Origin: an uncultured Bacilli bacterium
GTDB lineage: Bacteria; Bacillota_I; Bacilli_A; RF39; UBA660
Assembly (NCBI GenBank): GCA_944358235.1
Contig: CALVQL010000001.1
Coordinates: forward strand, 1 to 48,612
Reading direction: 5' to 3'
DNA length: 48,612 nucleotides
The position numbers and the translations under genes were made by a program. The notes below the pieces were generated by a model. It made no database searches. It saw only the letters and a program-made list of their open reading frames with translations, and had not been told where the DNA came from. Positions 4,072-22,275 of the stretch are shown piece by piece. Position 1 is the first letter of the stretch. Each line of letters opens with the position of its first letter.

Positions 4072-4145
4072 CCTTTTTTGGTTAACATACTTCTCTATTA
4101 AACATTTTGCCTATTTTTGCATACATTAAATTGAGGAGTGGTCAT

Positions 4146-4664
4146 ATGGCATATTATAAAGAGATCGTTACTAAGGCGGTCATCGGCAAAGGAAAAAAGA
4201 CGACAAAAGAAGTTCAGACGATTAATACGACAGAAAATGTCAATAATGTTTTGGGTTGTTGGGTAATCAATCATTCGTTTAGTGGTGTAATAGACAATGG
4301 AACTATTATAGTTAATGGTTCTTATGATGTTAATGTTTGGTACTCTTATGACAACAATACCAAAACCAATGTCATGATACGTCGATTCACCTATAGCGAT
4401 ACTATGAATGTGAAGATTAAAGAGAATTCCAAGTTGACAAATACTAGTGAAATTATCGTTCGTTCATTATCACAACCTAGTGTAACTGATGTATCAAATA
4501 ATGGAAGTGAAATAACTTTAAATATCGAAAAACAAATGGGCGTTGAAGTTGTCGGAGATACGAAAGTCCGAGTATCGGTTGCGGATGATTATGATGATTA
4601 TGAGGAGATCATCGATGATAATGACATCGATGTATCTGATGTTACTGATGACTATTTAAATTAG
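4146..4664 (+). CDS. cotE: outer spore coat morphogenetic protein CotE
   Basis: MAYYKEIVTKAVIGKGKK...GCWVINH...YDVNVWYSYDNNTKTNV...VVGDTKVRV plus an acidic D/E tail parallels B. subtilis CotE (MSEYREIITKAVVAKGRK...INVWYSYADNTKTEV...VVGETKVVV, acidic C-terminus). Start set at ATG 4146 (GAGGAG RBS), not the track's TTG at 4107. Confidence 0.85.
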   Translation: MAYYKEIVTKAVIGKGKKTTKEVQTINTTENVNNVLGCWVINHSFSGVIDNGTIIVNGSYDVNVWYSYDNNTKTNVMIRRFTYSDTMNVKIKENSKLTNTSEIIVRSLSQPSVTDVSNNGSEITLNIEKQMGVEVVGDTKVRVSVADDYDDYEEIIDDNDIDVSDVTDDYLN

Positions 4665-5071: not shown

Positions 5072-5101
5072 AAAAAGCTCAATCGAGCTTTATTTTTTTT
5101 T
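5072..5101. terminator. bidirectional terminator between the HIT gene and rpe
   Basis: aaaaaaagctc-aatc-gagcttt hairpin followed by a T9 run. Overlaps the rpe stop codon. Confidence 0.65.
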
Positions 5102-5725
5102 AAGCAAATCTATCTGATGTTGATAGTCATCACTCATACAGATAAAAGAACCCGCTACAGCAATATCAACACCATCTAATTTAGTTATCGATTCAGAATT
5201 AACACCACCATCAAAGCCAATCAAGAAATGATATTGATAACTATTACGTATCTTATCGAGTTCGACAATTTTCGATATCGTCTCATCGATAATAGCTTGA
5301 CCACCTTGTCCCGGATTTACTCCCATAATTAGAACATAATCTATAAAATTGAGATATGGTGTTATTCTGCTGATAGGTGTCATGGGGTTTATAGCTAATC
5401 CCGCTCTAATTCCGTGTTGATGTATAAGAGAAACAAGAGTTAATGTATCGACATTTATTTCACTATGAAAAGTAATGTACCTCGTATTTAAAGTTGCTAA
5501 CTTGGGAATATATTCAAGAGGATTTTCAACCATCAAGTGAATATCTAATGGTTTTGCAACATCTTGCAACAATTCACTAATTTCATCGATTGGCATACTC
5601 TTTGCTGGGACAAATACCCCATCCATGATATCAACATGTAAAAAGTCAGCATCAGTTTCCATAATAGATGAAATCGTCTCTTTAAGTGGTAATTTACTTT
5701 TCAAAAAACTAACAGATACTTTCAT
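5090..5725 (-). CDS. rpe: ribulose-phosphate 3-epimerase
   Basis: FLHVDIMDGVFVP, HLMV, GVNPGQGGQ and FDGGVN motifs. Conserved position after rsgA. Confidence 0.93.
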   Translation of the reverse strand: MKVSVSFLKSKLPLKETISSIMETDADFLHVDIMDGVFVPAKSMPIDEISELLQDVAKPLDIHLMVENPLEYIPKLATLNTRYITFHSEINVDTLTLVSLIHQHGIRAGLAINPMTPISRITPYLNFIDYVLIMGVNPGQGGQAIIDETISKIVELDKIRNSYQYHFLIGFDGGVNSESITKLDGVDIAVAGSFICMSDDYQHQIDLLKKK

Positions 5726-6546
5726 TAACTCACCATTTTCTTATAACTTTCATAGCGCGATGTCAAGATTTCACCATCACTCACTTGCTTTAATACCGCA
5801 CAATCACGTTCATTAATATGCATACAATCGCTAAAACGACAGCCAGAATTGTCAAATTCGGGAAAAGCAAAACGAATGTCTTTTTTATCGAATGAATCCA
5901 GATCAAATGCTGAAAAACCTGGTGTGTCAGCTATTAAAGCTTTATGACAAGAGAATAATTCGACATGACGAGTAGTATGTTTACCACGTCCTAAAGCTTC
6001 GCTTATATCGTCGGTAGCTAAATGTAATGATGAATCGAGTTTATTCATCAAAGTCGATTTTCCCACTCCTGTTTGCCCGCATAATACGACTGTTTTATTT
6101 TCAATCAGAGTAATTAATTCAGATATTTCTGTATTTAAAATTGCTTTTATTCCAATAGAATTATAATAAGTCATGATATCATTAATTTCCTTTTGTTCCG
6201 TCGCATCTAAAAGATCAAACTTAGAAAAACAAATTATCGGTGTAATATCATTCAAAATTATATTGGCAAGCATTTTATCGAGCAGAAAGGCCGAAAACGA
6301 AGGCCTTTTACAACTGCTTACGATTAATGCTAAATCGACATTAGCTATCATGGGACGAGAAAGCGCATTTTTTCGTGGCTTAATTTCGAGGATATATTTC
6401 ATATCCGCATCAAAGACGACATAATCGCCGACAAGTGGCGTTATGTTGTCGTTTTTAAACTTACCACGAGCACGACATTCATATGTCTGATTATCGCTTA
6501 AAACGGTATATAAATTACTAATTATTCTTATTATTCGTCCATTCAT
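5725..6546 (-). CDS. rsgA: ribosome small subunit-dependent GTPase A
   Basis: Circularly permuted GTPase: FSKFDL then GQTGVGKSTLMN, DTPGF, and a C-terminal Cys/His zinc cluster (CRFSDCMHINERDC). TAATG overlap with the rpe start. Confidence 0.92.
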   Translation of the reverse strand: MNGRIIRIISNLYTVLSDNQTYECRARGKFKNDNITPLVGDYVVFDADMKYILEIKPRKNALSRPMIANVDLALIVSSCKRPSFSAFLLDKMLANIILNDITPIICFSKFDLLDATEQKEINDIMTYYNSIGIKAILNTEISELITLIENKTVVLCGQTGVGKSTLMNKLDSSLHLATDDISEALGRGKHTTRHVELFSCHKALIADTPGFSAFDLDSFDKKDIRFAFPEFDNSGCRFSDCMHINERDCAVLKQVSDGEILTSRYESYKKMVS

Positions 6547-8360
6547 ACGCCATCATCAGTAACTAAAGAATCATCCATGCCAACATCGACGTCAGCATCA
6601 GTTCCTTCTTCTACAGCAACTTCTTCTGAAATATAAAGTCTTAATGTTTGACCATTCATGACATTCGATCCAGCTTCTTGACTTTGATCATATATAGTTC
6701 CGGCTGGATATTCATCGGTCTGATTATATACAGGTAGTAACGTTACCCCATATTTTTCACACCATGCTTCGATTTCACTCAATGAATAACTTCCATCAGT
6801 AAAGTCTGGATACGTCGTACTCATATCTGGAATGTAAAGAGTTATCGTATCTCCTTCGGTTAAACGCTCTCCAGCTGCCGGTTCGGTACTGAGAATTTCA
6901 TCGGCATTATGATTTCCATCATCTTCGACACGTTTAACGATGACGTATAGATTATACATTTTTTCTAAGACACCTTTTACTTCGAGATAGTTTTGTCCGA
7001 CGAGATCTTCTTCGACGACATAGCCATTTTCACCAGTAGATACAAACAAAGTTACTTCCGTACCTTCTTTTACGGTTTGCCCTGCTAATGGACTTGTCTT
7101 GGTAACATTACCTTCAGCAATTTCCGAAGATGCTTCTTCGCGATTTTCTGATGCAACGATGAGTCCATACTTTTCGATTTCCTTTTCGGCATCGACGATA
7201 CTCATATTAGTAACATCGGGGATCGTTACTTCTTTTACCTCGGTTATCTTAGGAATCAAGAATACTAAAGTCGTTACTATGACGACTAAGCCCGTAAAAA
7301 TCGCCGCAAGAATTATCAACAATTTATTTTCTTTTTTCTTTAAATCTTTTTCAGTTATCTTTGTCGCTTTAATTTCAACATCATCCTTTGCTTCTTCTTT
7401 TTTAGCATCCTTCTTTTTCGGTTTTTCTACAACTTTCTCCTTCGATTTCGATGCTGGAGGCGTCTCTACTTTTTTCTTCGCTCCATCTCCTTCATCTTCC
7501 GGATACTTAAAGACATATTTCGGTTCGTTTATTCGCGAGTCCAAAAGCGCTGTTTTCAAATCATCATGCATTTCCTTGGCATCTGCATAACGATTCTTCA
7601 CATTTTTAGCTGTCGCTTTCATGATAATATTTTCTATAGACTGAGGAATATTTGGCAACTTTTCCTTTATACTTGGAAAAGGCTCCTTGATATGCTTTAG
7701 AGCTATTTCAACAGCATTGTCTCCACGGAATGGTAATGTTCCCGTTAAAAGCTCATACATCAATATTCCCATCGAATAAACATCGCTTTGAATCGTAGCA
7801 CCTTTACCACTTGCTTGTTCTGGTGGTAAATAATGCACACTACCCATAACACTATTAGTTTGTGTCAATTGTGTCGAATTTAAAGCCATTGCTATACCAA
7901 AATCCGTGATTTTTATCAAACCGTTTTCCAGAATCATGATATTTTGTGGTTTAATATCACGATGGATAATGTAAGAATCATGTGCGGCTGACATTCCATC
8001 GGTAACTTGTAGCATAATATCGACAACTTCAGTTAAAGTAAGATTACCTCGCTTTTTGAGAAGTTGCTTGAGATGCTTACCTTCGATATATTCCATGACG
8101 ATATAGTATGATCCATTATCTTCGCCGACATCATATACTTCGACAATATTTGGATGAGAAAGACTCGAAGCACTTAAAGCCTCTCTTTGGAAACGGCGAA
8201 CGAATTTTTCATCAGTTGCTAAGTCTCCACGCAATACCTTTACTGCAACATTGCGGTCGAGTATCGTATCATAAGCCAGATAAACATTCGCCATTCCGCC
8301 TTCACCAATTGTCTTGATAATTTGATAGCGATCGTTAATTTTTTGTCCTTTCATTATCAT
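6543..8360 (-). CDS. prkC: Ser/Thr protein kinase with extracellular PASTA repeats
   Basis: Hanks kinase motifs (GEGGMANVYLA, VAVK, HRDIKPQN, DFG), a K/E-rich linker, one TM segment (LLIILAAIFTGLVVIVTTLVFLI), then a repeated PASTA-like extracellular region. Confidence 0.92.
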   Translation of the reverse strand: MIMKGQKINDRYQIIKTIGEGGMANVYLAYDTILDRNVAVKVLRGDLATDEKFVRRFQREALSASSLSHPNIVEVYDVGEDNGSYYIVMEYIEGKHLKQLLKKRGNLTLTEVVDIMLQVTDGMSAAHDSYIIHRDIKPQNIMILENGLIKITDFGIAMALNSTQLTQTNSVMGSVHYLPPEQASGKGATIQSDVYSMGILMYELLTGTLPFRGDNAVEIALKHIKEPFPSIKEKLPNIPQSIENIIMKATAKNVKNRYADAKEMHDDLKTALLDSRINEPKYVFKYPEDEGDGAKKKVETPPASKSKEKVVEKPKKKDAKKEEAKDDVEIKATKITEKDLKKKENKLLIILAAIFTGLVVIVTTLVFLIPKITEVKEVTIPDVTNMSIVDAEKEIEKYGLIVASENREEASSEIAEGNVTKTSPLAGQTVKEGTEVTLFVSTGENGYVVEEDLVGQNYLEVKGVLEKMYNLYVIVKRVEDDGNHNADEILSTEPAAGERLTEGDTITLYIPDMSTTYPDFTDGSYSLSEIEAWCEKYGVTLLPVYNQTDEYPAGTIYDQSQEAGSNVMNGQTLRLYISEEVAVEEGTDADVDVGMDDSLVTDDGV

Positions 8361-9103
8361 TATTTTTCACCACTTTCTTTGACCAAGTAAGCGATTGATA
8401 TATTATCTTGTCCCCCACGAACATTACATTTTTTTATCAATTTAATGAGCTTGTCTTCGACTGCTAATCCCTCCTCATTTAGAACTTTTTCGATTTGTTC
8501 TTTAGTGAGCATATTAGTAAGTCCGTCACTACAAAGCATTATAGCATCGACATTAGTGTCGACATCGAAGATATCAAGTTCACATTTATCTGTAGCGCCT
8601 AACGCTTTCATTAAGACATTTTTCTTAGGATGATTTAAGGCCTCGGATTCTGTCAAATCACCTGTCTCTACTAAGAAATTAACTAATGTGTGATCTTTAG
8701 TAATTTTTTTTAGCTTGCCATTCTTAAAGACAAATCCACTGGAATCCCCGATGTTTACAAACATCAAAAATTCTTTCGTTAAAAGAGCCATAACACAAGT
8801 TGTCCCTAATCCCATTGCTTCCGGATGTTCTTCAGAATACTTGATAATATTCGAATTTATTTCATTTATATTTTCACGCAACCAATTAACTGCGTCCAAC
8901 TTTGTTCCAATCGTCGAAAGCTCTTGAAAACGCTTGCCGATTTGGGTTACAACCATCGATGAAGCGACTTCTCCAGCTCGATGTCCACCCATTCCATCTG
9001 CAACGATCATGAGATGCTCACTAGTAGCATTTTTTACTATTGTCACCGAATCTTCATTATGACTTCTAACCCGACCTGAATCAGTAATATAAAACGATTT
9101 CAT
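8360..9103 (-). CDS. prpC: PP2C-family Ser/Thr phosphatase
   Basis: RSHNEDS, ADGMGGH and CSDGL motifs. Overlaps the prkC start and the rlmN stop. Confidence 0.92.
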   Translation of the reverse strand: MKSFYITDSGRVRSHNEDSVTIVKNATSEHLMIVADGMGGHRAGEVASSMVVTQIGKRFQELSTIGTKLDAVNWLRENINEINSNIIKYSEEHPEAMGLGTTCVMALLTKEFLMFVNIGDSSGFVFKNGKLKKITKDHTLVNFLVETGDLTESEALNHPKKNVLMKALGATDKCELDIFDVDTNVDAIMLCSDGLTNMLTKEQIEKVLNEEGLAVEDKLIKLIKKCNVRGGQDNISIAYLVKESGEK

Positions 9104-10122
9104 TTTTCCACCTCACTAGCTCGCAATTGCCCACAAGCTGCATCAATATTACGCCCAAATTCTTTACGAATTGTAACGTTTATTCCACGTTTTTTTAAAG
9201 CATCATAAAACTTTAAAATCGTAGTTTTATCACTTTTTTTGAATTGTAGATGACTAGTTTCGTTATAAGGAATGAGATTGACATAGACATTTAATCCTCG
9301 AAGTAAATCCGCTAATTCATTAGCATTTTCGACACTATCATTTACATTATTAAGCATAACATATTCTATTGTCACTCGTCTATTAGTTTTTTTTATATAC
9401 TCATCTATAGACTTAATGAGACTTTCGATATTATATACTTTATTAATAGGCATTAATTCATCTCTAATAAGATTGTTAGGAGCATGGAGACTTATTGCCA
9501 AGTTTGTCTGTAATCCATTGTCTGCATACTCTAAAATCTTAGGAACTAAACCACAAGTAGAAACCGTTATATGACGTGCACCAACAGCAATTCCATACGG
9601 TGAATTAATTATTTCGATAAAACGCATAATATTCTCATAATTGTCAAACGGTTCTCCAATTCCCATGATAACAACACTATCAATTCGTTTTCCATCCACC
9701 TCTTCGATCGCTAGTAACTGACGAACAATTTCTCCACTTTCGAGATTACGAACCTTTTTCAAACGGCCACTTTCACAAAAGCGGCATCCCATATTGCATC
9801 CGACTTGACTAGATACACATACACTACGTCCATAATCATGAATCATCAATACCGCTTCGATGTAATTGCCATCGTCGAGGCGAAACAAATATTTTTTAGT
9901 TAGAGAACTACTCTGGACTTTTTCTATCTTTAAAGGCTTACACGAAAAGTCTGTTTTCAACTTTTCACGCAAATCTTTTTTTAAATTGCTCATTTCATCG
10001 AAATCAAATATACGTTTACGATAAATCCATTCATATACTTGACGGGCTTTATATTTTGCTTCACCAATGTTAGTAAAATATTCTTCTAAATCACTTATCG
10101 TACAGTCAAAAACACTTCTCAT
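9100..10122 (-). CDS. rlmN: 23S rRNA/tRNA (adenine-C2)-methyltransferase, radical SAM
   Basis: YKARQVYEWIY N-terminus, CNMGCRFC radical-SAM cluster, and ACGQL near the C-terminus. Confidence 0.93.
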   Translation of the reverse strand: MRSVFDCTISDLEEYFTNIGEAKYKARQVYEWIYRKRIFDFDEMSNLKKDLREKLKTDFSCKPLKIEKVQSSSLTKKYLFRLDDGNYIEAVLMIHDYGRSVCVSSQVGCNMGCRFCESGRLKKVRNLESGEIVRQLLAIEEVDGKRIDSVVIMGIGEPFDNYENIMRFIEIINSPYGIAVGARHITVSTCGLVPKILEYADNGLQTNLAISLHAPNNLIRDELMPINKVYNIESLIKSIDEYIKKTNRRVTIEYVMLNNVNDSVENANELADLLRGLNVYVNLIPYNETSHLQFKKSDKTTILKFYDALKKRGINVTIRKEFGRNIDAACGQLRASEVEK

Positions 10123-11487: not shown

Positions 11488-12867
11488 ATGAATTTTTTAG
11501 AACTAGTTCAAGAAGAATATAAAGAAATTAGCGATCTCGTAATCAAACCTATAAAAGGTATTCATTTAATCTATTTAGAAACTCTAGCCGATCAAGATAA
11601 AATCAACGACTATATCTTAAAAGCTGTAGCTAGCAAACGTATTATAACAGATATCAAAAAAGTACTTCCCAGTCCAAATGTCAAAGATATAAAGAATTAT
11701 AAAGAATTAAAGTTATATTTAGAAACTGGGTTTACAATCGTCTTAACTGATAATGAAGCGATTGCCATTGAAACTAAAGCAAATATAACTCGTTCAATCG
11801 ATACTCCAAGTACCGAACCGACAATATTCGGACCAAAGGATTCCCTAACCGAAAATTATCAGATTAATCTCGGTTTAATAAAACGGCGTATCAAATCTAA
11901 TCACCTAAAAAATGAAGTTACGTATATTGGCCGTTTTACGAAGACTTTAATTAGTACTTTATATATCGACAATGTTGCTGAAAAGGAGTTAGTCGATCAA
12001 GTTCGCGAAAAAATGCAAAATATCGTCATCGATGGTATAAACGATATCGGAGAATTAAAACAATTCCTCGTAAAAGAAACGAAAAATGTCTTTCCCGCTT
12101 TTAAAATGACCGAACGTCCAGATATTATAGCGAAGTCGCTCTTGGAAGGAAAAATAGTTATCTTAATGGATACTTCTCCTTATGCCTTGATAATACCATC
12201 TTTTTTAGCAGATTTTATCAACCCAGTATCTGATGACTATACCAAAAACATAAATGTCAACTTTTTAAAAATATTACGTTTTTTATGTTTCTTTTTATCG
12301 ATAATAACTCCGGCTTTTTATGTTGCCATTACGACATTCAATCAAGAGACAATTCCTACTAGTTTACTAATTAATTTTCAAGCACAACGCGAAGGAGTCC
12401 CCTTTCCTGCGGTTATCGAATGTCTTATAACTTTGATAATATGTGAAATATTGCGCGAAAGTGATACGCGATTTCCCTCTAGTTATGGGTCAGCGATTTC
12501 TATATTAGGAGCTTTGGTACTAGGAGATGCTGCGGTATCAGCAGGGATTGTCTCGCCGATAATGATTATCGTTATTGCTATTACATTTATTTCGAGTTTA
12601 ATATTTACCGATCTGGAAATAATAAATGCTATCAGACACTGGCGATTTTTCTTTTTAGTAGTATGTAGTATATATGGTCTTTATGGTATAGGTCTTTCGC
12701 TGATCTTCTTCATTGCAAATATGTCAAATTATGAGGTATTTAATAAACCTTATTTCTATCCGATTTCACCGTTTGATCCGTCTTATATAAAAGAAACACT
12801 ATTTAAAATGCGAAATACACGTCGTAGTAAAATATTAAGTCATAATAAATATAAGGGGGAAGCATGA
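11488..12867 (+). CDS. spore germination protein, GerA family A subunit
   Basis: About 460 aa. Soluble N-domain with PSTEPTIFGPKDSLTENYQINLGLIKRRIK, then a C-terminal membrane domain (REGVPFPAVIECLI...), typical of the GerAA/GerKA family. Confidence 0.88.
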   Translation: MNFLELVQEEYKEISDLVIKPIKGIHLIYLETLADQDKINDYILKAVASKRIITDIKKVLPSPNVKDIKNYKELKLYLETGFTIVLTDNEAIAIETKANITRSIDTPSTEPTIFGPKDSLTENYQINLGLIKRRIKSNHLKNEVTYIGRFTKTLISTLYIDNVAEKELVDQVREKMQNIVIDGINDIGELKQFLVKETKNVFPAFKMTERPDIIAKSLLEGKIVILMDTSPYALIIPSFLADFINPVSDDYTKNINVNFLKILRFLCFFLSIITPAFYVAITTFNQETIPTSLLINFQAQREGVPFPAVIECLITLIICEILRESDTRFPSSYGSAISILGALVLGDAAVSAGIVSPIMIIVIAITFISSLIFTDLEIINAIRHWRFFFLVVCSIYGLYGIGLSLIFFIANMSNYEVFNKPYFYPISPFDPSYIKETLFKMRNTRRSKILSHNKYKGEA

Positions 12868-13826
12868 AAAAACTGATATTATTATTTATAACTCTATTTT
12901 TGGTGACCGGCTGTTATAATTATCACGATTTAAACGAATTAGGAATCGCTTCATCGATTTTAATCGATTATACTGATCAGTTTGAAGTTACGGTCGAAAT
13001 ATTAGAAGATGAAAAATCCGAAACTTATAAGGGAAGTGGCAAAACTCTCGATAATGCTTTTAACAATATCATACTAGGTACCGAAAGAGATCTTTATTAT
13101 AATCATTTAGATGCCATAATATTGACGGAAAATGTGAATGTAAAAGATATTATAAGTTATTTCATGCGTAATCCGGAAGTCAATAATACATTTTATCTCG
13201 TAATAACTGAAACGACCGATATTTATAAAGAAGATAAATTCGGCAAAACTCTTAGTAATATCTTAAAACGTGATAATATGAGTAATTTTTTCGATATTAC
13301 TCAAACACTGTTTGAAGAAAATCAAGATATGGCAATCCCCTATTTAAATAGACAGTTAAAAATTGAAAGTATTGCTGCTTATGATGAGCAATCTATCGCT
13401 TTTAATTTAAGTTTGGAAGAAATCGATATATACAAGCTTTTAACCAATAACACAGGAAGTAACATAGTTACGTCTTATGAAGGAGAAAATGTCGAGATAA
13501 AAGTCAACGAAATTACTACTAAATATAAATTGAATGATGAGATAAAGATCGCCATCGAATTAGAAGCTAGCCTCGTCGAAATAGATCAAACAATTGACAC
13601 ATCAAATTTAGATACGATAGCAAAAATTGAAGAGTCGTTAAATAAAGAAATAGTTAAACAAACTGCTACTTTTATCGATAAATTAAAATATACAAAAAGC
13701 GATATTTTAGGAATTGATAAAATGCTTTACAATAAATTTCACAATCTTTTAAAGACATTCGAAGATTATAATTACGAAATAGAAGTTAAGACGCATATAA
13801 ATAAGAAAGGATTACTTCTAAAATGA
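12864..13826 (+). CDS. Ger(x)C family germination lipoprotein
   Basis: Lipobox LFLVTGC near the N-terminus, size about 320 aa, and a start overlapping the A-subunit stop (ATGA). Confidence 0.75.
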   Translation: MKKLILLFITLFLVTGCYNYHDLNELGIASSILIDYTDQFEVTVEILEDEKSETYKGSGKTLDNAFNNIILGTERDLYYNHLDAIILTENVNVKDIISYFMRNPEVNNTFYLVITETTDIYKEDKFGKTLSNILKRDNMSNFFDITQTLFEENQDMAIPYLNRQLKIESIAAYDEQSIAFNLSLEEIDIYKLLTNNTGSNIVTSYEGENVEIKVNEITTKYKLNDEIKIAIELEASLVEIDQTIDTSNLDTIAKIEESLNKEIVKQTATFIDKLKYTKSDILGIDKMLYNKFHNLLKTFEDYNYEIEVKTHINKKGLLLK

Positions 13827-14767
13827 AACGAGAATTCAACATTTTAAATTACCTAAATTCACGAGCTTTATTCATGGGAATTGGTCTTTCAAAATTATTG
13901 ATTCAGGCTCACGAATATATTTGGATATCATTAATATTAGGAACAATTATTGGTGCTATTCTAATTCACTTTGTGAAATTCAAGATGAAAAAATCATTAT
14001 TAAATGTCGTGATTTGTTCTATCCTATTTGTAATTGGTTTAAATATTTTGATAAATATGATATCGACGATGTATTTAACAGAGATGCCGAAATTACTTGT
14101 CGGTATACCAATTATATTACTCGTAATGTACATTCTTAATAAACGAGAAGTAATTATCTATCGTGTCGCCAATATCTTGTTCGTTTTAAACATATTCTTG
14201 TACGTCGTAGCGATGTTATCATTAGTAAGTGATTTTCATTTAGAAAATTTCACATATTCTAATACTCCAATTCAAAATGTCATCTTCTCAGCTTTAGAAT
14301 TTGCCTTGTTTTCGACTTTACCGACATTAATTACTCGGGATGAGAATACTGCTAACATCTCATTAGTTAAAACATATATAATATCAGCAATAACTATGGG
14401 AACCTGGTTCTTGCTAACATATGGGATTTTAGGAGCAAATCTAGTGGATATTTATCGTTATCCAGAATATATCATTCTCAAAAAAATATCCATTATGAAC
14501 TTCTTAGAAAACATCGAGAATATAGTATCTTTCGTCTGGCTTTTCGATATAATAATATTTTTATTGTGTAATGGCAATGCAATTAAAAAGAATGTCGATA
14601 ACCCCAAAGTTATCAACATATTACTACCGATACTATTACTAATAACCGCCTTTATTAACCGTTTCTATATCCTAATTTTATATATTTATAAATATTCCTC
14701 AATAATCTTGTTAATATTAGCAATATTATTATTTGTTGCCAATAAAAAACGTCATCAGACATCATGA
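13823..14767 (+). CDS. putative germinant receptor B subunit (GerAB-like permease), short and divergent
   Basis: Polytopic membrane protein translationally coupled to the C subunit. The N-terminal SRALFMGIGLSKLL...YIWISLILGTIIGAILI pattern resembles GerAB-type proteins. At 314 aa it is shorter than the usual length of about 360 aa. Confidence 0.55.
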   Translation: MKREFNILNYLNSRALFMGIGLSKLLIQAHEYIWISLILGTIIGAILIHFVKFKMKKSLLNVVICSILFVIGLNILINMISTMYLTEMPKLLVGIPIILLVMYILNKREVIIYRVANILFVLNIFLYVVAMLSLVSDFHLENFTYSNTPIQNVIFSALEFALFSTLPTLITRDENTANISLVKTYIISAITMGTWFLLTYGILGANLVDIYRYPEYIILKKISIMNFLENIENIVSFVWLFDIIIFLLCNGNAIKKNVDNPKVINILLPILLLITAFINRFYILILYIYKYSSIILLILAILLFVANKKRHQTS

Positions 14768-14780
14768 TGGCGTTTTATTA
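14743..14780. terminator. bidirectional terminator shared by convergent, overlapping gene ends
   Basis: 12-bp stem aaaacgtcatca / tgatggcgtttt (one G-U pair) with a 7-nt loop. Both stop codons (14765-14767 plus strand, 14755-14757 minus strand) sit inside the hairpin. Confidence 0.6.
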
Positions 14781-15111
14781 AGCCAAATACGATCGCTAGG
14801 ATATGAGAAATATAAAGAATACCCGAAAAATACATCATATTAAAAGTAACTGAATTCATAATTTGATAGATTGATGAAAATACAAATAGACAACCAAAGT
14901 ATATTATATATAATATCCAAAAAATAACGTCGACAGTTGAAAAACTAGCTCTTTTACGATATAGATAAGCAATGCAAAGATAACTTAAAAATATAACGAT
15001 AAGAAGTGGTATTGAAATATATATATTCATAAAAGTTACAATATAATTTCCCAAAATTAATATACCTATTAGTAGATTTAAATAGAAAAAAATATCAACT
15101 AGACGTTTCAT
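14755..15111 (-). CDS. hypothetical small polytopic membrane protein
   Basis: 118 aa with about four hydrophobic segments. ATGA overlap with the upstream 186-aa gene. Confidence 0.55.
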   Translation of the reverse strand: MKRLVDIFFYLNLLIGILILGNYIVTFMNIYISIPLLIVIFLSYLCIAYLYRKRASFSTVDVIFWILYIIYFGCLFVFSSIYQIMNSVTFNMMYFSGILYISHILAIVFGLIKRHHDV

Positions 15112-15668
15112 TTTATCACCTCAATCAAGTCTCTTAAAACCATTATTTCCCAACTTTTTGTCGTATATGTTCCAGTTTGTTCGTGAGACTTTCGTAAGTT
15201 GTTGCGATTATAGAAGTCTTCTATGGTAAACTCATGTGATAGTTGATAACGGTTATATTGTTCCTCTGGAAATACAGTAGCACTTAAAGCTTTTACATAT
15301 ATTTCATCAGTATCATCTTCAATACTACATTGATTCACTACTCGTTCGTAGTAATCCGTAAATTTAAGATCTTCAGCATAATAACTACTCACATATTCGC
15401 GAAGAGAAACCGTTCCATCAGAGAAATGCGTCGCATTGATACGATCAACCATCGAAAATAAAGCTTCTTGACATTCCTCACTAGTATCGAGAGCATTAAT
15501 ATCATCATTGAGTTTAGTAATTACTTTCGAGTAACTTGATATATCTTTGACATTTATGTCGCTATTTCGCTTTATAAATATATTTATCATAAATAATATC
15601 GTCAATGTTACAATACAGATAAAAATTCCCAATAAGACATATTTAATACGTTGCATATACTTCACCAA
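15108..15668 (-). CDS. hypothetical membrane-anchored protein
   Basis: 186 aa with a single N-terminal TM segment (YVLLGIFICIVTLTILFMINIFI) followed by a soluble domain. No recognised motif. Confidence 0.55.
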   Translation of the reverse strand: MVKYMQRIKYVLLGIFICIVTLTILFMINIFIKRNSDINVKDISSYSKVITKLNDDINALDTSEECQEALFSMVDRINATHFSDGTVSLREYVSSYYAEDLKFTDYYERVVNQCSIEDDTDEIYVKALSATVFPEEQYNRYQLSHEFTIEDFYNRNNLRKSHEQTGTYTTKSWEIMVLRDLIEVIK

Positions 15669-15692: not shown

Positions 15693-15721
15693 TACAAAAA
15701 AAATCAGATATTATCTGATTT
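15693..15721 (-). terminator. rho-independent terminator after the 423-aa gene
   Basis: Minus strand: AAATCAGATA-A-TATCTGATTT followed by a T8 run. Confidence 0.7.
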
Positions 15722-16991
15722 AAGTAATTAACGTATCATCAACCGAATAGCACTCCCCTAATCCTGTAAATTCGCATACTTTCTGTTTCGATGATGCTGA
15801 AAGGTTAAAAGCACTTTCCTTATAAGCTCTAATTGTACTAGAAGAGGCATTATAATCGCCGAATTTTGTGACATTGTATCCCGAAATCATAAATATATCG
15901 TTTGTAAGATATAAATAGTATTGAGGTATAGTCGTATCGCGATTATCAACTAATATATATCCTCGCATCGAGACATCTTTATCATATGATATATCCGTAG
16001 TAATATCGTAGATATAAATTCTCGCCGATAAATTACGATTCGTAAAATCCGTTTCAACTAATTTAGTCACATCTTTTGAAAACGTACTAAAATTATCTTT
16101 TCCCCCGTTTTCGACGTATTTGAGTGAAGAAAAAGATTCACAATCTTTACGGGTATAGTTTTCACAGACAGTTTCATCATCTAAATTATTGACGTATGCG
16201 GCATCATAGTCGACGATATCGTTCTTAGATAACTGTTGTTTTGTTGCGTTAAAATTTTGCACCATATATCTAGTATTATAAATCGTATAGACAAATTCCA
16301 ACTGACTTATATCTGTCGCATCGATTAATATATAACCATTCAGTTCCTGTTCTTCAGTTGTATTCATAGTCGATAAATCATATATATAATATCCACTTTC
16401 ATTTATACCATTTAAGGCATCGATATTATTTAAAAGATCAGTTTCCACTTTTTCAATATTTTGCATAAAAATATCTTTTTCCGACAAATTACTGATAACA
16501 TTAAGTGTTGCTTTAAATATAGTCATAGTATTTTCCATATTTGCTTTAAATGAAAGTTTGATGTATACCTTACTATTTTTATCGACAGGAATATTATAAC
16601 CTAAATTAGTATCGCCAGAAATTCGAGTATCGCTTGTTAGTTCATGATATTTTCCATCTATTTCACTAGCGTAAGAAATATCATATGTCAAACGTTCATT
16701 ATTTATCTCAACAGAATCCAAAGATACAGCAAATGACATTACTACATCATTCGGATTTGATACTTCGATATATTTGGTAATCTCGTTACCATAAGAAAGT
16801 TCTGTATCAATAAGATTTCCCTCATAATAAAGAATATTTAAAGTCATATCATTTATTGTAAGTTCGGTTTTAGAATCTGCTACTAAAGAGGGATTCCCCT
16901 CTTCTTCATCCCAAAACATCGATATGCTATATCCCAATATCGAGATGATTACAACACCAATTATAAGCATCGTAATATTTTTTTTCTTCAT
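15720..16991 (-). CDS. hypothetical N-terminally anchored extracytoplasmic protein with an internal duplication
   Basis: N-terminal TM segment (ITMLIIGVVIISILGYSISMF). Two copies of a module of about 70 aa: YIYDLSTMNTTEEQELNGYILIDATD...YNTRYMVQNFNATK and IYIYDITTDISYDKDVSMRGYILVDNRD...TNDIFMISGYNVTK. Confidence 0.6.
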   Translation of the reverse strand: MKKKNITMLIIGVVIISILGYSISMFWDEEEGNPSLVADSKTELTINDMTLNILYYEGNLIDTELSYGNEITKYIEVSNPNDVVMSFAVSLDSVEINNERLTYDISYASEIDGKYHELTSDTRISGDTNLGYNIPVDKNSKVYIKLSFKANMENTMTIFKATLNVISNLSEKDIFMQNIEKVETDLLNNIDALNGINESGYYIYDLSTMNTTEEQELNGYILIDATDISQLEFVYTIYNTRYMVQNFNATKQQLSKNDIVDYDAAYVNNLDDETVCENYTRKDCESFSSLKYVENGGKDNFSTFSKDVTKLVETDFTNRNLSARIYIYDITTDISYDKDVSMRGYILVDNRDTTIPQYYLYLTNDIFMISGYNVTKFGDYNASSSTIRAYKESAFNLSASSKQKVCEFTGLGECYSVDDTLIT

Positions 16992-17038: not shown

Positions 17039-17362
17039 TTAGTCTTTTACTTTAAAGATCATTGTAATCAAAAAAGCCATGAGAATTGCAGATACTATTC
17101 CAACGGAAACGCCGCTTAACATATTGAGAACTCCGCTCTCAATTGCTGTCTTATATAAAGTATTGCCAAATGACATGATTATTACGCTAGCGCCATTACC
17201 AAATAAAGCTATCATCTTATCATATATTCCTAAAAATCCGAGTAATGCTCCTAGACTGACAAATAAGCTAGTTATGTGCCCACTAGTAAGGCGAGTATTG
17301 TCTTTAATAATTTGTGCGATCATACAAATAAGTCCTGTAAAAATAAACGATTTAATTATCAT
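17039..17362 (-). CDS. spoVAE: stage V sporulation protein AE (SpoVAEb-type)
   Basis: About 107-aa membrane protein, TSGHITSLFVSLGALLG motif, position after spoVAD. Confidence 0.85.
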   Translation of the reverse strand: MIIKSFIFTGLICMIAQIIKDNTRLTSGHITSLFVSLGALLGFLGIYDKMIALFGNGASVIIMSFGNTLYKTAIESGVLNMLSGVSVGIVSAILMAFLITMIFKVKD

Positions 17363-18321
17363 GATTCCACCTCGATTTCGACGACATGAGCTATGGCTGG
17401 TATACTGTTTTTCTGATTTATTAGGGTCGGATTATGCAGAGCACCAGTTCCAACAATTAAAATTTTCTTATAACGTTTTTGACGGATTATTTTGCTAAAT
17501 AATACTAGTGGTAAAACGGATGGCCCACTTCCGCCGGTATATTTGTTTTGGCTTTCCTTATAAATCATCGTTCCGGCATCATATATATTATCTGTACTAA
17601 TTTTAAAGTCGCGTTTTAATACTTCGTTTAATAGCTCAATACCTAATGTACCAAGATCGCCGGTGAGAATAATGTCATAATCTTTTGCTCTTTTATTCAT
17701 GTTAAATAAATGAGCGTTTATTGCCGAGGCCGCAGCCGGTGCCATTACTGCTCCCATATTATAGACATCTGTTATTCCATAATCGACGACAGATCCGATT
17801 GTTGCGCTGATGATTTTATATTTACTGGGAATATTGGAGATTATAGCACCGACAGCTGCAGTTGTTGTCGATGTCGTATAACAGGCTTTTAAAGCCCCAT
17901 ATTCAACGGGAAAGCGAAATTGACGTTCACTAGTAAGATTATGTGAACTAGTAAGAACACATATTTTATCGACATTGTTATTCATAATTAGATTGGAAGC
18001 CAGGAGTAATCCTTCGACAAATGTCGAACATGCATTATATATTCCCAAAAAGGATTTAGGAAAATCACGCATACAAGTATTTATCGTTCCAAGTTGGTTG
18101 GATAGATCACCACCAATAACTAAGTCAAAATCCGTCTTACTAAGCAAGTTATTTAAAACGGTCTTTTGCATCTTAACTTCGGCAGCTTCAAGAGTTTTTT
18201 CACCATAATAAAAATCTTTTAAATACATGTCAATATTCGAAAGGCGTCCCTTTCGTTCGTCATCACCAGCAAGAGTAAACCAATGATTTATATATGTATT
18301 TTTAAATTTTAAAGTAAGCAT
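17359..18321 (-). CDS. spoVAD: stage V sporulation protein AD
   Basis: Thiolase-like fold protein of about 320 aa (GGDLSNQ..., TGALHNPT) in the conserved spoVAC-AD-AE order. Confidence 0.88.
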   Translation of the reverse strand: MLTLKFKNTYINHWFTLAGDDERKGRLSNIDMYLKDFYYGEKTLEAAEVKMQKTVLNNLLSKTDFDLVIGGDLSNQLGTINTCMRDFPKSFLGIYNACSTFVEGLLLASNLIMNNNVDKICVLTSSHNLTSERQFRFPVEYGALKACYTTSTTTAAVGAIISNIPSKYKIISATIGSVVDYGITDVYNMGAVMAPAAASAINAHLFNMNKRAKDYDIILTGDLGTLGIELLNEVLKRDFKISTDNIYDAGTMIYKESQNKYTGGSGPSVLPLVLFSKIIRQKRYKKILIVGTGALHNPTLINQKNSIPAIAHVVEIEVES

Positions 18322-18710
18322 AATAAACCTCGCAATCCAGCTAAAATTGCTGCGGATACGATACCATATAAAATGACGGATCCGGCAAGCTTAAAATAAT
18401 TAGCACCAATTCCTGTGACTAATCCTTCCTTTTTATATTCTAAGGATGCACTTGTTACAGAATGCGAAAAACCAGTTATGGGAATAACAATCCCCATCTT
18501 CAATTTGTCTACCAAAGAGTCAAAAACACCAAAACCAGTTAATATCGATGATAGAACGATCCAAATAACGAGCATGGTCTGTACATCAAAACAACTTACT
18601 AAAAGATGCGATATAGACCCCATAACACCACCGGTTAAAAAAGCAACGATGCAATTTTTCCAACGATTCTCCTTGGGTGTCATCTTTTCCACTAATTCTT
18701 TATACGTCAT
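18309..18710 (-). CDS. spoVAC: stage V sporulation protein AC
   Basis: Membrane protein with AFLTGGVMGSI and PITGFSHSV segments. Start set at ATG 18708-18710 (MTYKELVEK), 9 nt after GGAGG. The track start at 18725 overlaps that RBS. Confidence 0.85.
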   Translation of the reverse strand: MTYKELVEKMTPKENRWKNCIVAFLTGGVMGSISHLLVSCFDVQTMLVIWIVLSSILTGFGVFDSLVDKLKMGIVIPITGFSHSVTSASLEYKKEGLVTGIGANYFKLAGSVILYGIVSAAILAGLRGLLCLL

Positions 18711-18742
18711 ATTAAAAACCTCCATTTTTATTATGGAGGTTT

Positions 18743-19357
18743 TTAGGAAATATATTCGAGTATTTGTCGTTTGCTTTTGGCTTCAATTCGCGATACTTTA
18801 ACTTGGGATATTCCTAGCAAATCGGCAACTTCGCTTTGTGTTAAATCTTCCTTAAAACGATAGTTGATTACAGCAGATGATAAAGGATCCAACGTGCTAA
18901 GAGATTCTTCGAGCATTATTAAATCATCGCAGTTGTTTTCAACGCCAATCTGAATACGCTCATATTCATCGTCCAAACTGAACATATCTTCCATCATTAT
19001 AGATACATATTCCAATTCCGATAAGTCCACTTCTAAATATGAACTCACATCTTTAAGAGTCACTTCCCTGTTTAACGATTGTGCTAAGGTATTTTTAGCG
19101 ATATTGATCGAGCGATATAACTTAAGATAGTTTTTATTTAGTTTTATATCGCGGCTTTTTAAGGACAGTTCATACATTTCTCCAAAAATGTATTTATAAG
19201 CATACGAGGAGAATTTGACACTTGTATCACGATAATTTCTATAAGCTTTTAATAGGCCCAAACAACCAGCTTGATATAAGTCCTCTTTATCAATATTGTA
19301 AAATCTCTTAGCAATACTGAAAATAAGCAGTGAATTTTCTTCTATTAGCTGATCCAC
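18743..19357 (-). CDS. sigF: sporulation sigma factor, SigF-like (group 3 sigma-70)
   Basis: Region 2 (DLYQAGCLGLLKAYRNY...FSSYAYKYIFGEM) and region 4 HTH (TQSEVADLLGISQVKVSRIEAK) parallel B. subtilis SigF (TQSEVAERLGISQVQVSRLEKK). Located between a STAS gene and spoVAC-AD-AE, as in Bacillus and Clostridium. GTG start overlaps the STAS stop (TAGTG). Confidence 0.8.
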   Translation of the reverse strand: MDQLIEENSLLIFSIAKRFYNIDKEDLYQAGCLGLLKAYRNYRDTSVKFSSYAYKYIFGEMYELSLKSRDIKLNKNYLKLYRSINIAKNTLAQSLNREVTLKDVSSYLEVDLSELEYVSIMMEDMFSLDDEYERIQIGVENNCDDLIMLEESLSTLDPLSSAVINYRFKEDLTQSEVADLLGISQVKVSRIEAKSKRQILEYIS

Positions 19358-19683
19358 TATATACGCATAAGTTCTAGTGCTACAAGTTCATTACTGACAT
19401 TTTCAAATTTTGCTTGTGTATTTATCCTGTTATTCACCAATAATACCTTCCCGTTATTCTCGGAAATCTCCTTCTCACCGGCAATAAGGGCATCTTCCCC
19501 GGCATTATCAATTTCCAAGAGATCGTTTAAGTTATAAACCATATATTTGATTCCGTAATCTTTAATAATGGGGATTGTGTACTCTTTAAATTTAGGTGCT
19601 GTATTAGCATTTAAATTTCCCTTCAAGCGTACGAACAAAATTCCTTTCCTATATTCCATATTAATCTTCAACATTTTTATCAC
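19357..19683 (-). CDS. spoIIAA: STAS-domain anti-sigma-factor antagonist (SpoIIAA-like)
   Basis: 108 aa. ILFVRLKGNLNANTAPKFKE...YMVYNLNDLLEIDNAGEDALI aligns by eye with B. subtilis SpoIIAA [20 protein letters not shown]...HIVLNLEDLSFMDSSGLGVIL. Confidence 0.75.
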   Translation of the reverse strand: MIKMLKINMEYRKGILFVRLKGNLNANTAPKFKEYTIPIIKDYGIKYMVYNLNDLLEIDNAGEDALIAGEKEISENNGKVLLVNNRINTQAKFENVSNELVALELMRI

Positions 19684-19918
19684 CTAGATTTGTTATATCG
19701 CTTAAAAGCGTTTAATGAAATACTTTCGACAAATGTGGATTTTTAATACAGATAATCATCGAATGATGTTAACACTAGACTGGCAAGTGTTTGACAATTG
19801 ATTAACGAAATATAATTCTTCTTAACTATGCAAATCGTGTTAAAGATGGACTTTTCACCAATTTTGTAGTATATTAGTAGTACCTGAGAGCTTTAGATAC
19901 TTAATTTAAGGAGGAATT

Positions 19919-21639: not shown

Positions 21640-22275
21640 ATGTATACAGTAAAAAGAATTCAAAATTCTAATTGTGAAAATTTGTATGATTATCGTCTAG
21701 AAAACGATGATATCGTCATCTTACTATCATTCGAAGGTAATCTCGACTTTTATATGAGTGCTTTGGATAAGAATAATAATCAGCAGGATACTATTATATT
21801 CCCTATCGATAAATCTAACTATCAGATATATTCTTGTTTTGATAGATTGTTCAATACTATAATCGATGCTACTATTTATAAAACACATAGTGAGGATCTC
21901 TTGTTTTTTGATGATGATGAAATAAAAGAACGCTTAGATAGAATAGAAAGAATGAATAAACGCTTAAAAGATAGCTATACTTATAAAGAATTGATAAGAG
22001 ACGGCAATATCGTATGGCGAAGTGATGATGGGGATATCGATTCAGCAAATACTTTAACAATCGAACACAATGATGACATGTATTTTTTAAAGTTTAAAAG
22101 AAATAACAGGGATTTAAGTTTTAGTATTCCGATAAGATTTCGAAATAGTGGCAGCGATTATGAACCATTTAATTTAGCATTTATGGAATTTTATAATTCT
22201 TTACAAAATTATGATCCCGAATATCATCAGATTCATCTTGAAGAAGTGCTTTTAGAATTAAAATTAACAAAATAA
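21640..22275 (+). CDS. hypothetical protein
   Basis: 211-aa ORF with GGTGA upstream. Soluble and acidic, with no recognisable motif. Confidence 0.5.
   Translation: MYTVKRIQNSNCENLYDYRLENDDIVILLSFEGNLDFYMSALDKNNNQQDTIIFPIDKSNYQIYSCFDRLFNTIIDATIYKTHSEDLLFFDDDEIKERLDRIERMNKRLKDSYTYKELIRDGNIVWRSDDGDIDSANTLTIEHNDDMYFLKFKRNNRDLSFSIPIRFRNSGSDYEPFNLAFMEFYNSLQNYDPEYHQIHLEEVLLELKLTK

What the first reader, a model, noticed from the sequence alone, without database searches (positions are those of the whole stretch)
17039..19683. Sigma-F locus without spoIIAB, and a SpoIIAA-like protein with no phosphorylatable Ser
In Bacillus and Clostridium the forespore sigma locus is spoIIAA-spoIIAB-sigF, often followed by spoVA genes. 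The flanks are conserved here: a STAS gene, a SigF-like sigma, then spoVAC-AD-AE 17 nt downstream. However, the STAS stop (TAG, 19357-19359) overlaps the sigma GTG start (19355-19357), which leaves no room for the HATPase-type anti-sigma kinase. The B. subtilis phosphorylation motif DLSFMDSSGLG (Ser58) corresponds here to DLLEIDNAGED, which has no Ser or Thr anywhere in the segment. The sigma is also about 50 aa shorter at its N-terminus (204 vs 255 aa). Together this points to a rewired partner-switch module. Sigma-F might be controlled directly by the STAS protein, by an anti-sigma encoded elsewhere, or by something not yet described.
Basis: partly seen in the sequence, partly recalled or inferred. 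Interest (0 to 1): 0.7.

Follow-up and report, generated by a model that had tools for sequence, protein, structure and literature searches.

The report
Kinase-less sigma-F operon in gut Bacilli
An uncultured, small-genome gut bacterium (order RF39 or close to it) keeps the first sporulation sigma factor and its STAS partner under Spo0A control, but has lost the kinase between them and the partner's phosphorylation site, so the supposedly universal switch that starts forespore gene expression must work differently here.

Summary
On the minus strand, a 105-aa STAS gene ends in a TAG that shares one base with the GTG start of a 204-aa SigF-like sigma gene. spoVAC-AD-AE follows. There is no room for spoIIAB.

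The same layout occurs in about 60 species-level genomes of uncultured small-genome Bacilli, including RF39 members. The STAS protein has a confident SpoIIAA fold, but its kinase-facing motifs are rewritten. The phospho-Ser column is unconstrained, yet the gene is under strong purifying selection (dN/dS 0.066).

A Spo0A box sits 53–60 nt upstream of the STAS start in 61 of 61 loci, so this is the orthologous spoIIA operon and not a paralogous module. Relatives carry normal spoIIGA-sigE-sigG. At least three sub-lineages have also deleted the STAS gene, leaving the same promoter in front of sigma.

A 2024 gene-content survey already noted that spoIIAB and spoIIE are scarce or absent in RF39. So the gene loss is known, but the anatomy described here is not.

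How sigma-F is controlled here remains inferred. I rate this a new variant of a known system, of moderate to high interest.

The parts
19692..19731 (-). Promoter of the STAS-sigma operon. It has a Spo0A box TGTCGAA (19731..19725), a weak -35-like TTTCAT (19720..19715) and a -10 TATAAC (19697..19692).
   Evidence: TGTCGAA lies at -53 to -60 from the STAS ATG in 61 of 61 distinct loci, against a background of 0.057 per 250 nt. The conserved architecture is TGTCGAA-N3-GTTTAAA-N~16-18-TATATT/TATAAC. That the box binds Spo0A is inferred from the B. subtilis consensus, which I recalled rather than tested.
19357..19674 (-). SpoIIAA-fold STAS protein, 105 aa, with Asn in place of the phosphorylatable Ser and rewritten GELD / DS[ST]GLG motifs.
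   Evidence: Pfam STAS E 1.9e-11. TIGR02886 spore_II_AA scores 38 bits against a cut-off of 114.75. AF2 model pLDDT 91. Best Foldseek hit is SpoIIAA 1THN_B, TM 0.86. Motif columns. dN/dS 0.066.
18743..19357 (-). Trimmed sigma-F orthologue, 204 aa with a GTG start that overlaps the STAS stop by 1 nt. Domains sigma2, sigma3 and sigma4 are present. The N-terminal ~36 aa and ~13 aa of the 3.2 linker are absent.
   Evidence: Best NCBIfam model is spore_sigF, 118 bits against a cut-off of 321. 33% identity to B. subtilis SigF, and closer to SigF than to SigG. Best PDB sequence match is 1L0O_C sigmaF, 3e-31. Alignment. AF2 model. The N-terminus is conserved in 17 relatives.
18729..18757 (-). Forespore-type (sigmaG/sigmaF-like) promoter motif GAATA-N17-CATAATA at the sigma/spoVAC junction. 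The -35 lies inside the sigma's last codons (LEYIS).
   Evidence: GHATR-N17/18-CATNHTA is present at 53 of 77 distinct junctions, against a background of 0.0022 per 90 nt. The consensus was recalled from the B. subtilis literature. Function is not shown.
18713..18745 (-). 13-bp hairpin (-16.4 kcal/mol) followed by a T-run. It looks like the terminator of the STAS-sigma unit, and its 3' arm contains the spoVAC Shine-Dalgarno GGAGG.
   Evidence: RNA fold. A similar hairpin is found in most close relatives but not in the more distant sub-clades. The simple terminator scan did not report it.
18309..18710 (-). spoVAC (133 aa from the ATG at 18710; 138 aa if from 18725).
   Evidence: Pfam SpoVAC_SpoVAEB 4e-25. 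TIGR02838 1.9e-35. Gene callers use the 133-aa form.
17359..18321 (-). spoVAD.
   Evidence: Pfam SpoVAD 2.9e-89.
17039..17362 (-). spoVAE (SpoVAEB-type).
   Evidence: Pfam SpoVAC_SpoVAEB 9e-18. TIGR02839 2.4e-21.

Best explanation
This is the orthologous spoIIA operon of an RF39-type small-genome gut bacterium, in a reduced form that has no kinase.

Shown: a promoter with a fixed Spo0A box drives a two-gene, translationally coupled message. It encodes a SpoIIAA-fold STAS protein and a trimmed sigma-F. The anti-sigma kinase gene spoIIAB, which separates these genes in all characterised spore-formers, is absent from the operon throughout the clade. The STAS protein keeps its fold core and is under strong purifying selection. 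Its kinase-facing residues are overwritten: the phospho-Ser, the Asp of GELD, and the Leu-Gly after DSSG.

Inferred: control of sigma-F by the SpoIIAB kinase / SpoIIE phosphatase cycle has been abandoned. The STAS protein now acts without phosphorylation, made in step with sigma-F. It modulates sigma-F either by binding it directly or by binding some unrelated inhibitor. It is an accessory rather than an essential part, because several sub-lineages have deleted it and placed the same promoter and ribosome-binding site directly in front of sigma-F.

Sigma-F is then expected to launch the otherwise ordinary cascade (spoIIGA-sigE-sigG are intact in relatives). spoVA has its own forespore-type promoter.
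For: - Layout and overlap.
- Clade-wide conservation of STAS-sigma-spoVACDE, with a junction from -14 to +23 nt.
- No SpoIIAB/RsbW-like coding potential in the window plus 86 loci (761 kb).
- Spo0A box in 61 of 61 loci, and a conserved promoter.
- Sigma is SigF-like by HMM ranking, BLAST, PDB match and tree.
- A separate, well-conserved SpoIIGA-SigE-SigG lies on the same contig in L049. Full-length SigG (257 aa) is widespread in the lineage.
- STAS fold.
- Phospho-site column is N18 S10 E10 D6 K6 L5 I2 G2 T1 R1 M1 of 62, the 8th most variable of 104 columns, while D57, G60 and G76 are invariant. The GELD Asp is kept in 1 of 62.
- dN/dS: STAS 0.066, sigma 0.098, SpoVAD 0.080.
- STAS-less loci keep the same promoter and SD. 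There were at least three losses.
[quoted passage not shown] Ca. Coprovivens (L067, L070) is RF39 (PMC8035907). The cultured neighbour Turicibacter has the canonical trio (PMC13492147).
- Other sporulation genes in the window (CotE, GerA/B/C, SpoVA).
Against: - I could not search the whole genome, so a relocated SpoIIAB-type kinase or a SpoIIE is excluded only by a one-sentence KO survey of RF39 and by indirect evidence.
- Eleven of 62 family members do carry Ser or Thr at the site.
- The window organism's RF39 membership is inferred from a shared protein family, not from marker genes.
- Sporulation has never been observed in this lineage, and one classifier scores RF39 MAGs as non-sporulating (PMC12536801).
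- Nothing here shows what the STAS protein binds.
- Repeated loss of STAS weakens the idea that it is a central regulator.
- In B. subtilis, unrestrained sigma-F is toxic (from memory), so some control not seen here is likely.
Confidence: 0.65

Rival explanations
1. The STAS protein has itself become the anti-sigma or escort. It binds sigma-F directly in 1:1 stoichiometry, with no kinase, and is released or degraded in the forespore. This would be a minimal two-protein switch.
For: Translational coupling and a conserved 1-nt overlap or tiny gap between the two genes. Strong purifying selection on STAS. The old kinase-facing surface has been replaced by conserved charged residues, G-[KE]-x. No other regulator lies in the operon.
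Against: I know of no precedent for a STAS antagonist binding a sigma directly. The co-fold could not be run. At least three sub-lineages dropped STAS and kept sigma and the promoter unchanged, which is hard to reconcile with an essential inhibitor.
Confidence: 0.25
2. An unrelated (non-HATPase) anti-sigma-F is encoded elsewhere. The STAS protein antagonises it in response to a signal other than phosphorylation, as the non-phosphorylatable RsfA does for UsfX/SigF in Mycobacterium tuberculosis.
For: STAS is retained and constrained without a phospho-site. Structural similarity to mycobacterial antagonists, e.g. 8IH8 and 4QTP, among the Foldseek hits. There is a general need to restrain sigma-F.
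Against: There is no candidate gene. The only conserved neighbours of unknown function (the 423-aa family) are confined to one sub-clade. Losing STAS would leave sigma-F locked off unless the inhibitor were lost too.
Confidence: 0.2
3. A SpoIIAB-type kinase (and perhaps SpoIIE) persists elsewhere in the genome, and the classical partner switch still operates in trans.
For: The whole genome was not searched here. The KO survey says 'reduced presence or complete absence', not absence everywhere. Ser or Thr is present at the site in 11 of 62 relatives.
Against: The window's STAS has Asn at the site and no Ser or Thr nearby. The column is among the most variable, and the GELD Asp and GLG are also lost, which argues against a conserved kinase interface. 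No such gene lies within 4-10 kb in 86 loci.
Confidence: 0.1
4. The module is a relic in a lineage that no longer sporulates. The sigma has been repurposed or is drifting.
For: RF39 has no cultured member and no observed spores. SpoMAG gives RF39 MAGs 0% sporulation probability. All the sporulation proteins here score well below curated cut-offs.
Against: dN/dS is 0.07-0.10 for STAS, sigma and SpoVAD. The Spo0A-box and forespore-type promoters are conserved across dozens of species. CotE, a GerA-type receptor, spoVA and spoIIGA-sigE-sigG are retained.
Confidence: 0.08

Closest known systems
spoIIAA-spoIIAB-sigF (spoIIA) operon of Bacillus and Clostridium, followed by spoVA
   Same: The position is the same (STAS upstream, sigma-F, spoVA downstream). 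Control is by a Spo0A box. The antagonist has the SpoIIAA fold. The sigma is closest to SigF. spoVA has a forespore-type promoter.
   Different: There is no spoIIAB gene. The antagonist lacks the phospho-Ser, the GELD Asp and the GLG motif. The sigma lacks about 36 N-terminal residues and most of the 3.2 linker. All components score far below the equivalog cut-offs. The promoter looks sigmaA-type with an abutting 0A box, not the sigmaH type I recall for B. subtilis spoIIA.
Turicibacter sanguinis sporulation regulators (nearest cultured relative with described sporulation; PMC13492147)
   Same: It is a related reduced-genome gut member of the Bacilli, with sigma-F, E, G and K.
   Different: Turicibacter retains SpoIIAA, SpoIIAB and sigma-F as adjacent genes. 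This clade has lost SpoIIAB.
RsfA / UsfX / SigF of Mycobacterium tuberculosis
   Same: It uses a STAS antagonist that is not regulated by phosphorylation (redox-regulated, from memory). The STAS fold is shared (related entries 8IH8 and 4QTP).
   Different: The mycobacterial system still has a HATPase-type anti-sigma (UsfX) next to sigF. None is present here.
RsbV-RsbW-SigB stress module
   Same: The STAS antagonist fold is shared (6M36), and the sigma belongs to the SigB/F/G subfamily.
   Different: The sigma scores lower against SigB (61 bits) than against SigF (118 bits). The context is sporulation (Spo0A box, spoVA). There is no RsbW and no phospho-Ser.

Membership tests
SpoIIAA (anti-sigma-F antagonist, TIGR02886) | STAS / SpoIIAA fold | tested here: met
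   AF2 pLDDT 91. Foldseek top hits are SpoIIAA chains 1THN_B, 1TID_B and 1TH8_B, TM 0.83-0.86.
SpoIIAA (anti-sigma-F antagonist, TIGR02886) | Conserved phosphorylatable Ser at the N-terminus of helix alpha2 (Ser58 in B. subtilis) | tested here: not met
   The window has Asn. The column is N/S/E/D/K/L/I/G/T/R/M across 62 relatives.
SpoIIAA (anti-sigma-F antagonist, TIGR02886) | Scores above the curated equivalog cut-off | tested here: not met
   38 bits against a cut-off of 114.75.
SpoIIAA (anti-sigma-F antagonist, TIGR02886) | First gene of the Spo0A-dependent operon that encodes sigma-F | tested here: met
   It lies immediately upstream of, and overlaps, the SigF-like gene. A Spo0A box is present in 61 of 61 loci.
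SpoIIAA (anti-sigma-F antagonist, TIGR02886) | Binds SpoIIAB and is its kinase substrate | not testable with these tools
   There is no SpoIIAB in the operon or within the fetched flanks. The docking motifs GELD and GLG are not conserved.
Sigma-F (TIGR02885 spore_sigF) | Best match among sigma families is SigF, and closer to SigF than to SigG or SigB | tested here: met
   SigF 118 bits, SigG 83/77, SigB 61. The same ranking holds in relatives. BLAST. PDB 1L0O_C is the best match. The NJ tree groups it with SigF.
Sigma-F (TIGR02885 spore_sigF) | Scores above the curated equivalog cut-off | tested here: not met
   118 bits against a cut-off of 321.45.
Sigma-F (TIGR02885 spore_sigF) | Full group-3 architecture, including the N-terminal segment before region 2.1 and a full 3.2 linker | tested here: not met
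   About 36 aa are missing at the N-terminus and about 13 aa in the linker. The model shows sigma2, sigma3 and sigma4 joined by a linker of about 8 residues.
Sigma-F (TIGR02885 spore_sigF) | Distinct from SigG and SigE encoded in the same genome | tested here: met
   L049 carries this sigma plus SpoIIGA, SigE (315 bits) and SigG (271 bits) on one contig. This was not shown for the window species itself.
Partner-switching module (antagonist + HATPase anti-sigma kinase + PP2C phosphatase) | HATPase_c-type anti-sigma kinase encoded with the antagonist and the sigma | tested here: not met
   The STAS stop and sigma start overlap. No gap exceeds 23 nt in about 60 genomes. tblastn with SpoIIAB and RsbW finds nothing in 761 kb.
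Partner-switching module (antagonist + HATPase anti-sigma kinase + PP2C phosphatase) | Such a kinase, and a SpoIIE-type phosphatase, anywhere in the genome | not testable with these tools
The literature reports both as reduced or absent in RF39 (PMC10868615). The only PP2C in the window belongs to the rlmN-prpC-prkC operon.

The most novel reading that the evidence does not exclude
A whole order of gut bacteria starts its forespore programme without the SpoIIAB/SpoIIE phosphorylation switch. A remodelled SpoIIAA acts directly and stoichiometrically on sigma-F as a kinase-independent anti-sigma or escort. This would be a minimal two-protein sigma-F switch of a kind not yet described.
Probability: 0.25. 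Interest if true: 0.8.

Novelty: new variant of a known kind. Interest (0 to 1): 0.6.

Why it matters
The SpoIIAA/SpoIIAB/SpoIIE partner switch is the textbook mechanism that confines sigma-F activity to the forespore. [quoted passage not shown]

Here a large, prevalent, uncultured gut lineage keeps Spo0A control, sigma-F, sigma-E/G and spore genes under selection, but has dismantled that switch. It kept the antagonist in a non-phosphorylatable form, and in some branches lost it too.

If these bacteria sporulate, compartment-specific activation of sigma-F must be achieved another way. This gives a natural experiment on what is minimally required.

It also matters in practice. Classifiers that treat spoIIAB as a universal marker score RF39 as non-sporulating (PMC12536801), and they may be misjudging how these gut bacteria are transmitted.

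Tried and rejected
- Co-folding STAS and sigma as a linker fusion, using a 34-row MSA paired by locus.
- Whole-genome search for SpoIIAB or SpoIIE. This was not possible.
- Using the longest-contig fingerprint to find the window species' own SigG among hits to an RF39 SigG. It was not in the 120 hits listed.
- Supplementary tables of PMC10868615 for per-family spoIIAB/spoIIE counts. The one file held as text has no such terms.
- Literature phrase searches for spoIIAB being absent and for the GTDB placement of CAG-582. These returned nothing usable.
- BLASTP of the window STAS against B. subtilis SpoIIAA gave no hit, although the L049 homologue did (27%, 5e-14). The relationship therefore rests on HMM and structure comparison.
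- The idea that one conserved single-TM protein family is always linked to this operon. It is rejected. The 423-aa family is limited to the window's sub-clade and has no Pfam or NCBIfam match.
- The PP2C at 8360..9103 as a SpoIIE candidate. It is rejected. It sits in the rlmN-PP2C-PASTA kinase-rsgA-rpe housekeeping operon.
- Look-up of the ProRS ORF, which failed because the listed TTG start is not the called one.
Full report
**What is there**

On the minus strand of the window, ORF listing and domain searches give the following:
- A STAS-domain gene (Pfam PF01740, E 1.9e-11).
- A 204-aa sigma-70 family gene. Its best NCBIfam model is spore_sigF (118 bits, far below the 321-bit equivalog cut-off). 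SigG scores 83/77 bits and SigB 61.
- spoVAC, spoVAD and spoVAE.

The STAS stop codon TAG (19359..19357) and the sigma GTG start (19357..19355) share one base. Nothing can be encoded between them.

Gene callers in public assemblies, and the conserved N-terminus MLKINMEY, put the STAS start at the ATG at 19674, giving 105 aa. They place the spoVAC start at 18710, 32 nt after the sigma stop.

**Is it real, and how widespread is it?**

The identical locus occurs in many independent gut metagenome assemblies. These include a 1,436,489-bp contig that is probably a near-complete genome.

A scan of one genome per species returned 80 loci encoding this sigma family. All are from uncultured 'Bacilli / Firmicutes / Tenericutes / Mollicutes / Erysipelotrichales bacterium' MAGs.

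About 60 of these loci have STAS-sigma-spoVAC-AD-AE in the same order. The STAS-sigma junction ranges from a 14-nt overlap to a 23-nt gap. tblastn with B. subtilis SpoIIAB and RsbW finds nothing in the window plus all 86 loci, 761 kb in total.

Two of the loci are Candidatus Coprovivens, which its describers place in GTDB order RF39, family CAG-1000 (PMC8035907). So the family belongs at least in part to RF39. The window organism's own placement is inferred.

**It is the spoIIA orthologue, not a side module**

- A perfect Spo0A-box core, TGTCGAA, lies 53-60 nt upstream of the STAS ATG in 61 of 61 distinct loci. Background is 0.057 per 250 nt. It sits within a conserved TGTCGAA-N3-GTTTAAA-N16-18-TATATT/TATAAC promoter.
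- The sigma is 33% identical to B. subtilis SigF. It is always closer to SigF than to B. subtilis SigG or to its own lineage's SigG.
- Its best solved relative is sigma-F from the SpoIIAB complex, 1L0O chain C, E 3e-31.
- In an NJ tree the family is monophyletic and sister to B. subtilis SigF, with SigG as outgroup. The tree has no support values.
- In relative L049 one contig reads RNase J | unknown | STAS | sigma | spoVAC-AD-AE | spoIIGA (Peptidase_U4, 1e-43) | sigE (315 bits) | sigG (271 bits). So SigE and SigG are separate and ordinary.
- SigG in the lineage is full length (257 aa) and 48-49% identical to B. subtilis SigG. SigE is 55-60% identical to its counterpart. The sigma-F orthologue alone is fast-evolving and trimmed.

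**The STAS protein**

With a 36-sequence alignment, AlphaFold2 gives a confident model (pLDDT 91, pTM 0.83). Its best PDB matches are SpoIIAA chains from the SpoIIAA-SpoIIAB complexes (1THN_B, TM 0.86, 22% identity), followed by other antagonists such as RsbV and the mycobacterial ones.

Aligned with SpoIIAA and RsbV:
- The fold-defining residues G20, L22, D57, G60 and G76 are invariant in 62 family members.
- The kinase-facing residues are not conserved. The phospho-Ser column reads N18 S10 E10 D6 K6 L5 I2 G2 T1 R1 M1, and is the 8th most variable of 104 columns.
- The Asp of the GELD motif survives in 1 of 62.
- The Leu-Gly after DSSG is replaced by charged residues.

The gene is still under strong purifying selection. 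Median NG86 dN/dS over 36 species pairs is 0.066, against 0.098 for the sigma and 0.080 for SpoVAD. So it is a working protein that no longer looks like a kinase substrate.

**The sigma**

Compared with B. subtilis SigF, it lacks about 36 N-terminal residues and about 13 residues of the region 3.2 linker, plus a few others. The short N-terminus is shared by all 17 aligned relatives. Some sub-clades (216-223 aa) keep more of the linker.

The AF2 model (pLDDT 82) shows sigma2, sigma3 and sigma4, with only about 8 low-confidence linker residues. Region 4.2 is nearly identical to that of SigF and SigG. Region 2.3/2.4 differs.

**STAS can be lost too**

In the Coprovivens-type clade, in a second clade (L063, L072, L079-L081) and in L083/L086, no STAS gene lies upstream of the sigma. 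In most of them the same Spo0A-box promoter and Shine-Dalgarno sit directly in front of the sigma gene.

On the sigma tree these loci fall in at least three separate places, while the earliest-branching group still has STAS. Outgroups such as Turicibacter have SpoIIAA-SpoIIAB-sigma-F (PMC13492147).

The most economical history is therefore:
1. Loss of spoIIAB in the ancestor of this clade.
2. Remodelling of the antagonist.
3. Repeated later loss of the antagonist.

**Literature**

[quoted passage not shown] So the absence of the kinase and phosphatase is on record at KO level.

I found no description of any of the following:
- the retained non-phosphorylatable antagonist
- the overlapping gene pair
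- the conserved promoter
- the trimmed sigma
- the secondary STAS losses

[quoted passage not shown] SpoMAG lists spoIIAB among nine genes universal to predicted spore-formers and gives RF39 MAGs 0% probability.

**How it most likely works**

Shown:
- operon anatomy
- promoter conservation
- protein folds
- loss of the kinase gene from the operon
- loss of constraint on the phospho-site
- purifying selection on the STAS gene

Inferred:
- Spo0A~P switches on a bicistronic message.
- The STAS protein and sigma-F are made in step.
- There is no kinase/phosphatase cycle.
- The STAS protein modulates sigma-F without phosphorylation, by direct binding or through an unknown partner.
- Sigma-F then starts the sigE/sigG cascade.

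I give about 0.65 to the core reading (a kinase-less, phosphorylation-independent spoIIA orthologue). Within that reading, about 0.25 goes to direct STAS-sigma binding and about 0.2 to an unknown, unrelated anti-sigma.

The main rival is a kinase relocated elsewhere in the genome, at about 0.1. It is disfavoured by the relaxed interface, but I could not exclude it directly. A pure relic is unlikely, given the selection and promoter conservation.

**Limits**

- The whole genome was not searchable.
- The Spo0A-box and sigma-G/F promoter consensuses, and the roles of the GELD and GLG motifs, come from my memory of the B. subtilis literature.
- The tree is a simple NJ tree.

Noticed in passing
window 18729..18757 (- strand): A forespore-type promoter motif, GAATA-N17-CATAATA, sits at the sigma/spoVAC junction. 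Its -35 lies inside the codons for the sigma's conserved C-terminus (LEYIS). The motif is conserved at 53 of 77 junctions, and the -35 shifts together with the -10 in different clades. The inferred transcript would start only about 12 nt before the spoVAC ATG, at the edge of the Shine-Dalgarno.
   Followed up: partly
window 18713..18745 (- strand): A 13-bp hairpin (-16.4 kcal/mol) plus a T-run lies right after the sigma stop. Its 3' arm is the spoVAC Shine-Dalgarno, so read-through transcripts would have the ribosome-binding site sequestered. It is present in close relatives only. The simple terminator scan missed it.
   Followed up: partly
window 15720..16991, 15108..15668 and 14755..15111 (- strand): Three genes after spoVAE have no Pfam or NCBIfam match: 423 aa with one N-terminal TM segment, 186 aa and 118 aa. 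The 423-aa family is conserved directly downstream of spoVAE in about 15 species of the window's sub-clade, and is not detectable elsewhere.
   Followed up: partly
window 4107..4664 (+ strand): A clear CotE (outer spore coat morphogenetic protein) homologue, Pfam E 5e-46. No NCBIfam model reports it.
   Followed up: no
window 11488..14767 (+ strand): A GerA-type germinant receptor operon with GerA (PF03323), GerC (PF05504) and a very divergent GerB-type permease. The permease has no Pfam hit and matches TIGR00912 at only 2.5e-10.
   Followed up: no
L049 1..8639: In some relatives the early sporulation regulators form one super-cluster: STAS, sigF-like, spoVAC-AD-AE, spoIIGA, sigE and sigG, all on one strand within about 5 kb.
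   Followed up: partly
L063, L066-L068, L070-L076, L079-L081 (upstream of sigma): In the STAS-less lineages the gene upstream of the sigma promoter is usually a single-TM protein of about 415-465 aa with no known family. It is not detectably related to the window's 423-aa protein.
   Followed up: partly
window 5090..10122 (- strand): A housekeeping rlmN - PP2C (prpC) - PASTA Ser/Thr kinase (prkC) - rsgA - rpe operon. This PP2C is the only phosphatase in the window and is not SpoIIE-like.
   Followed up: yes
window 21640..22275 (+ strand): A 211-aa ORF between RNase J and a ZIP transporter has no Pfam or NCBIfam match. It is present in all assemblies of this species.
   Followed up: no
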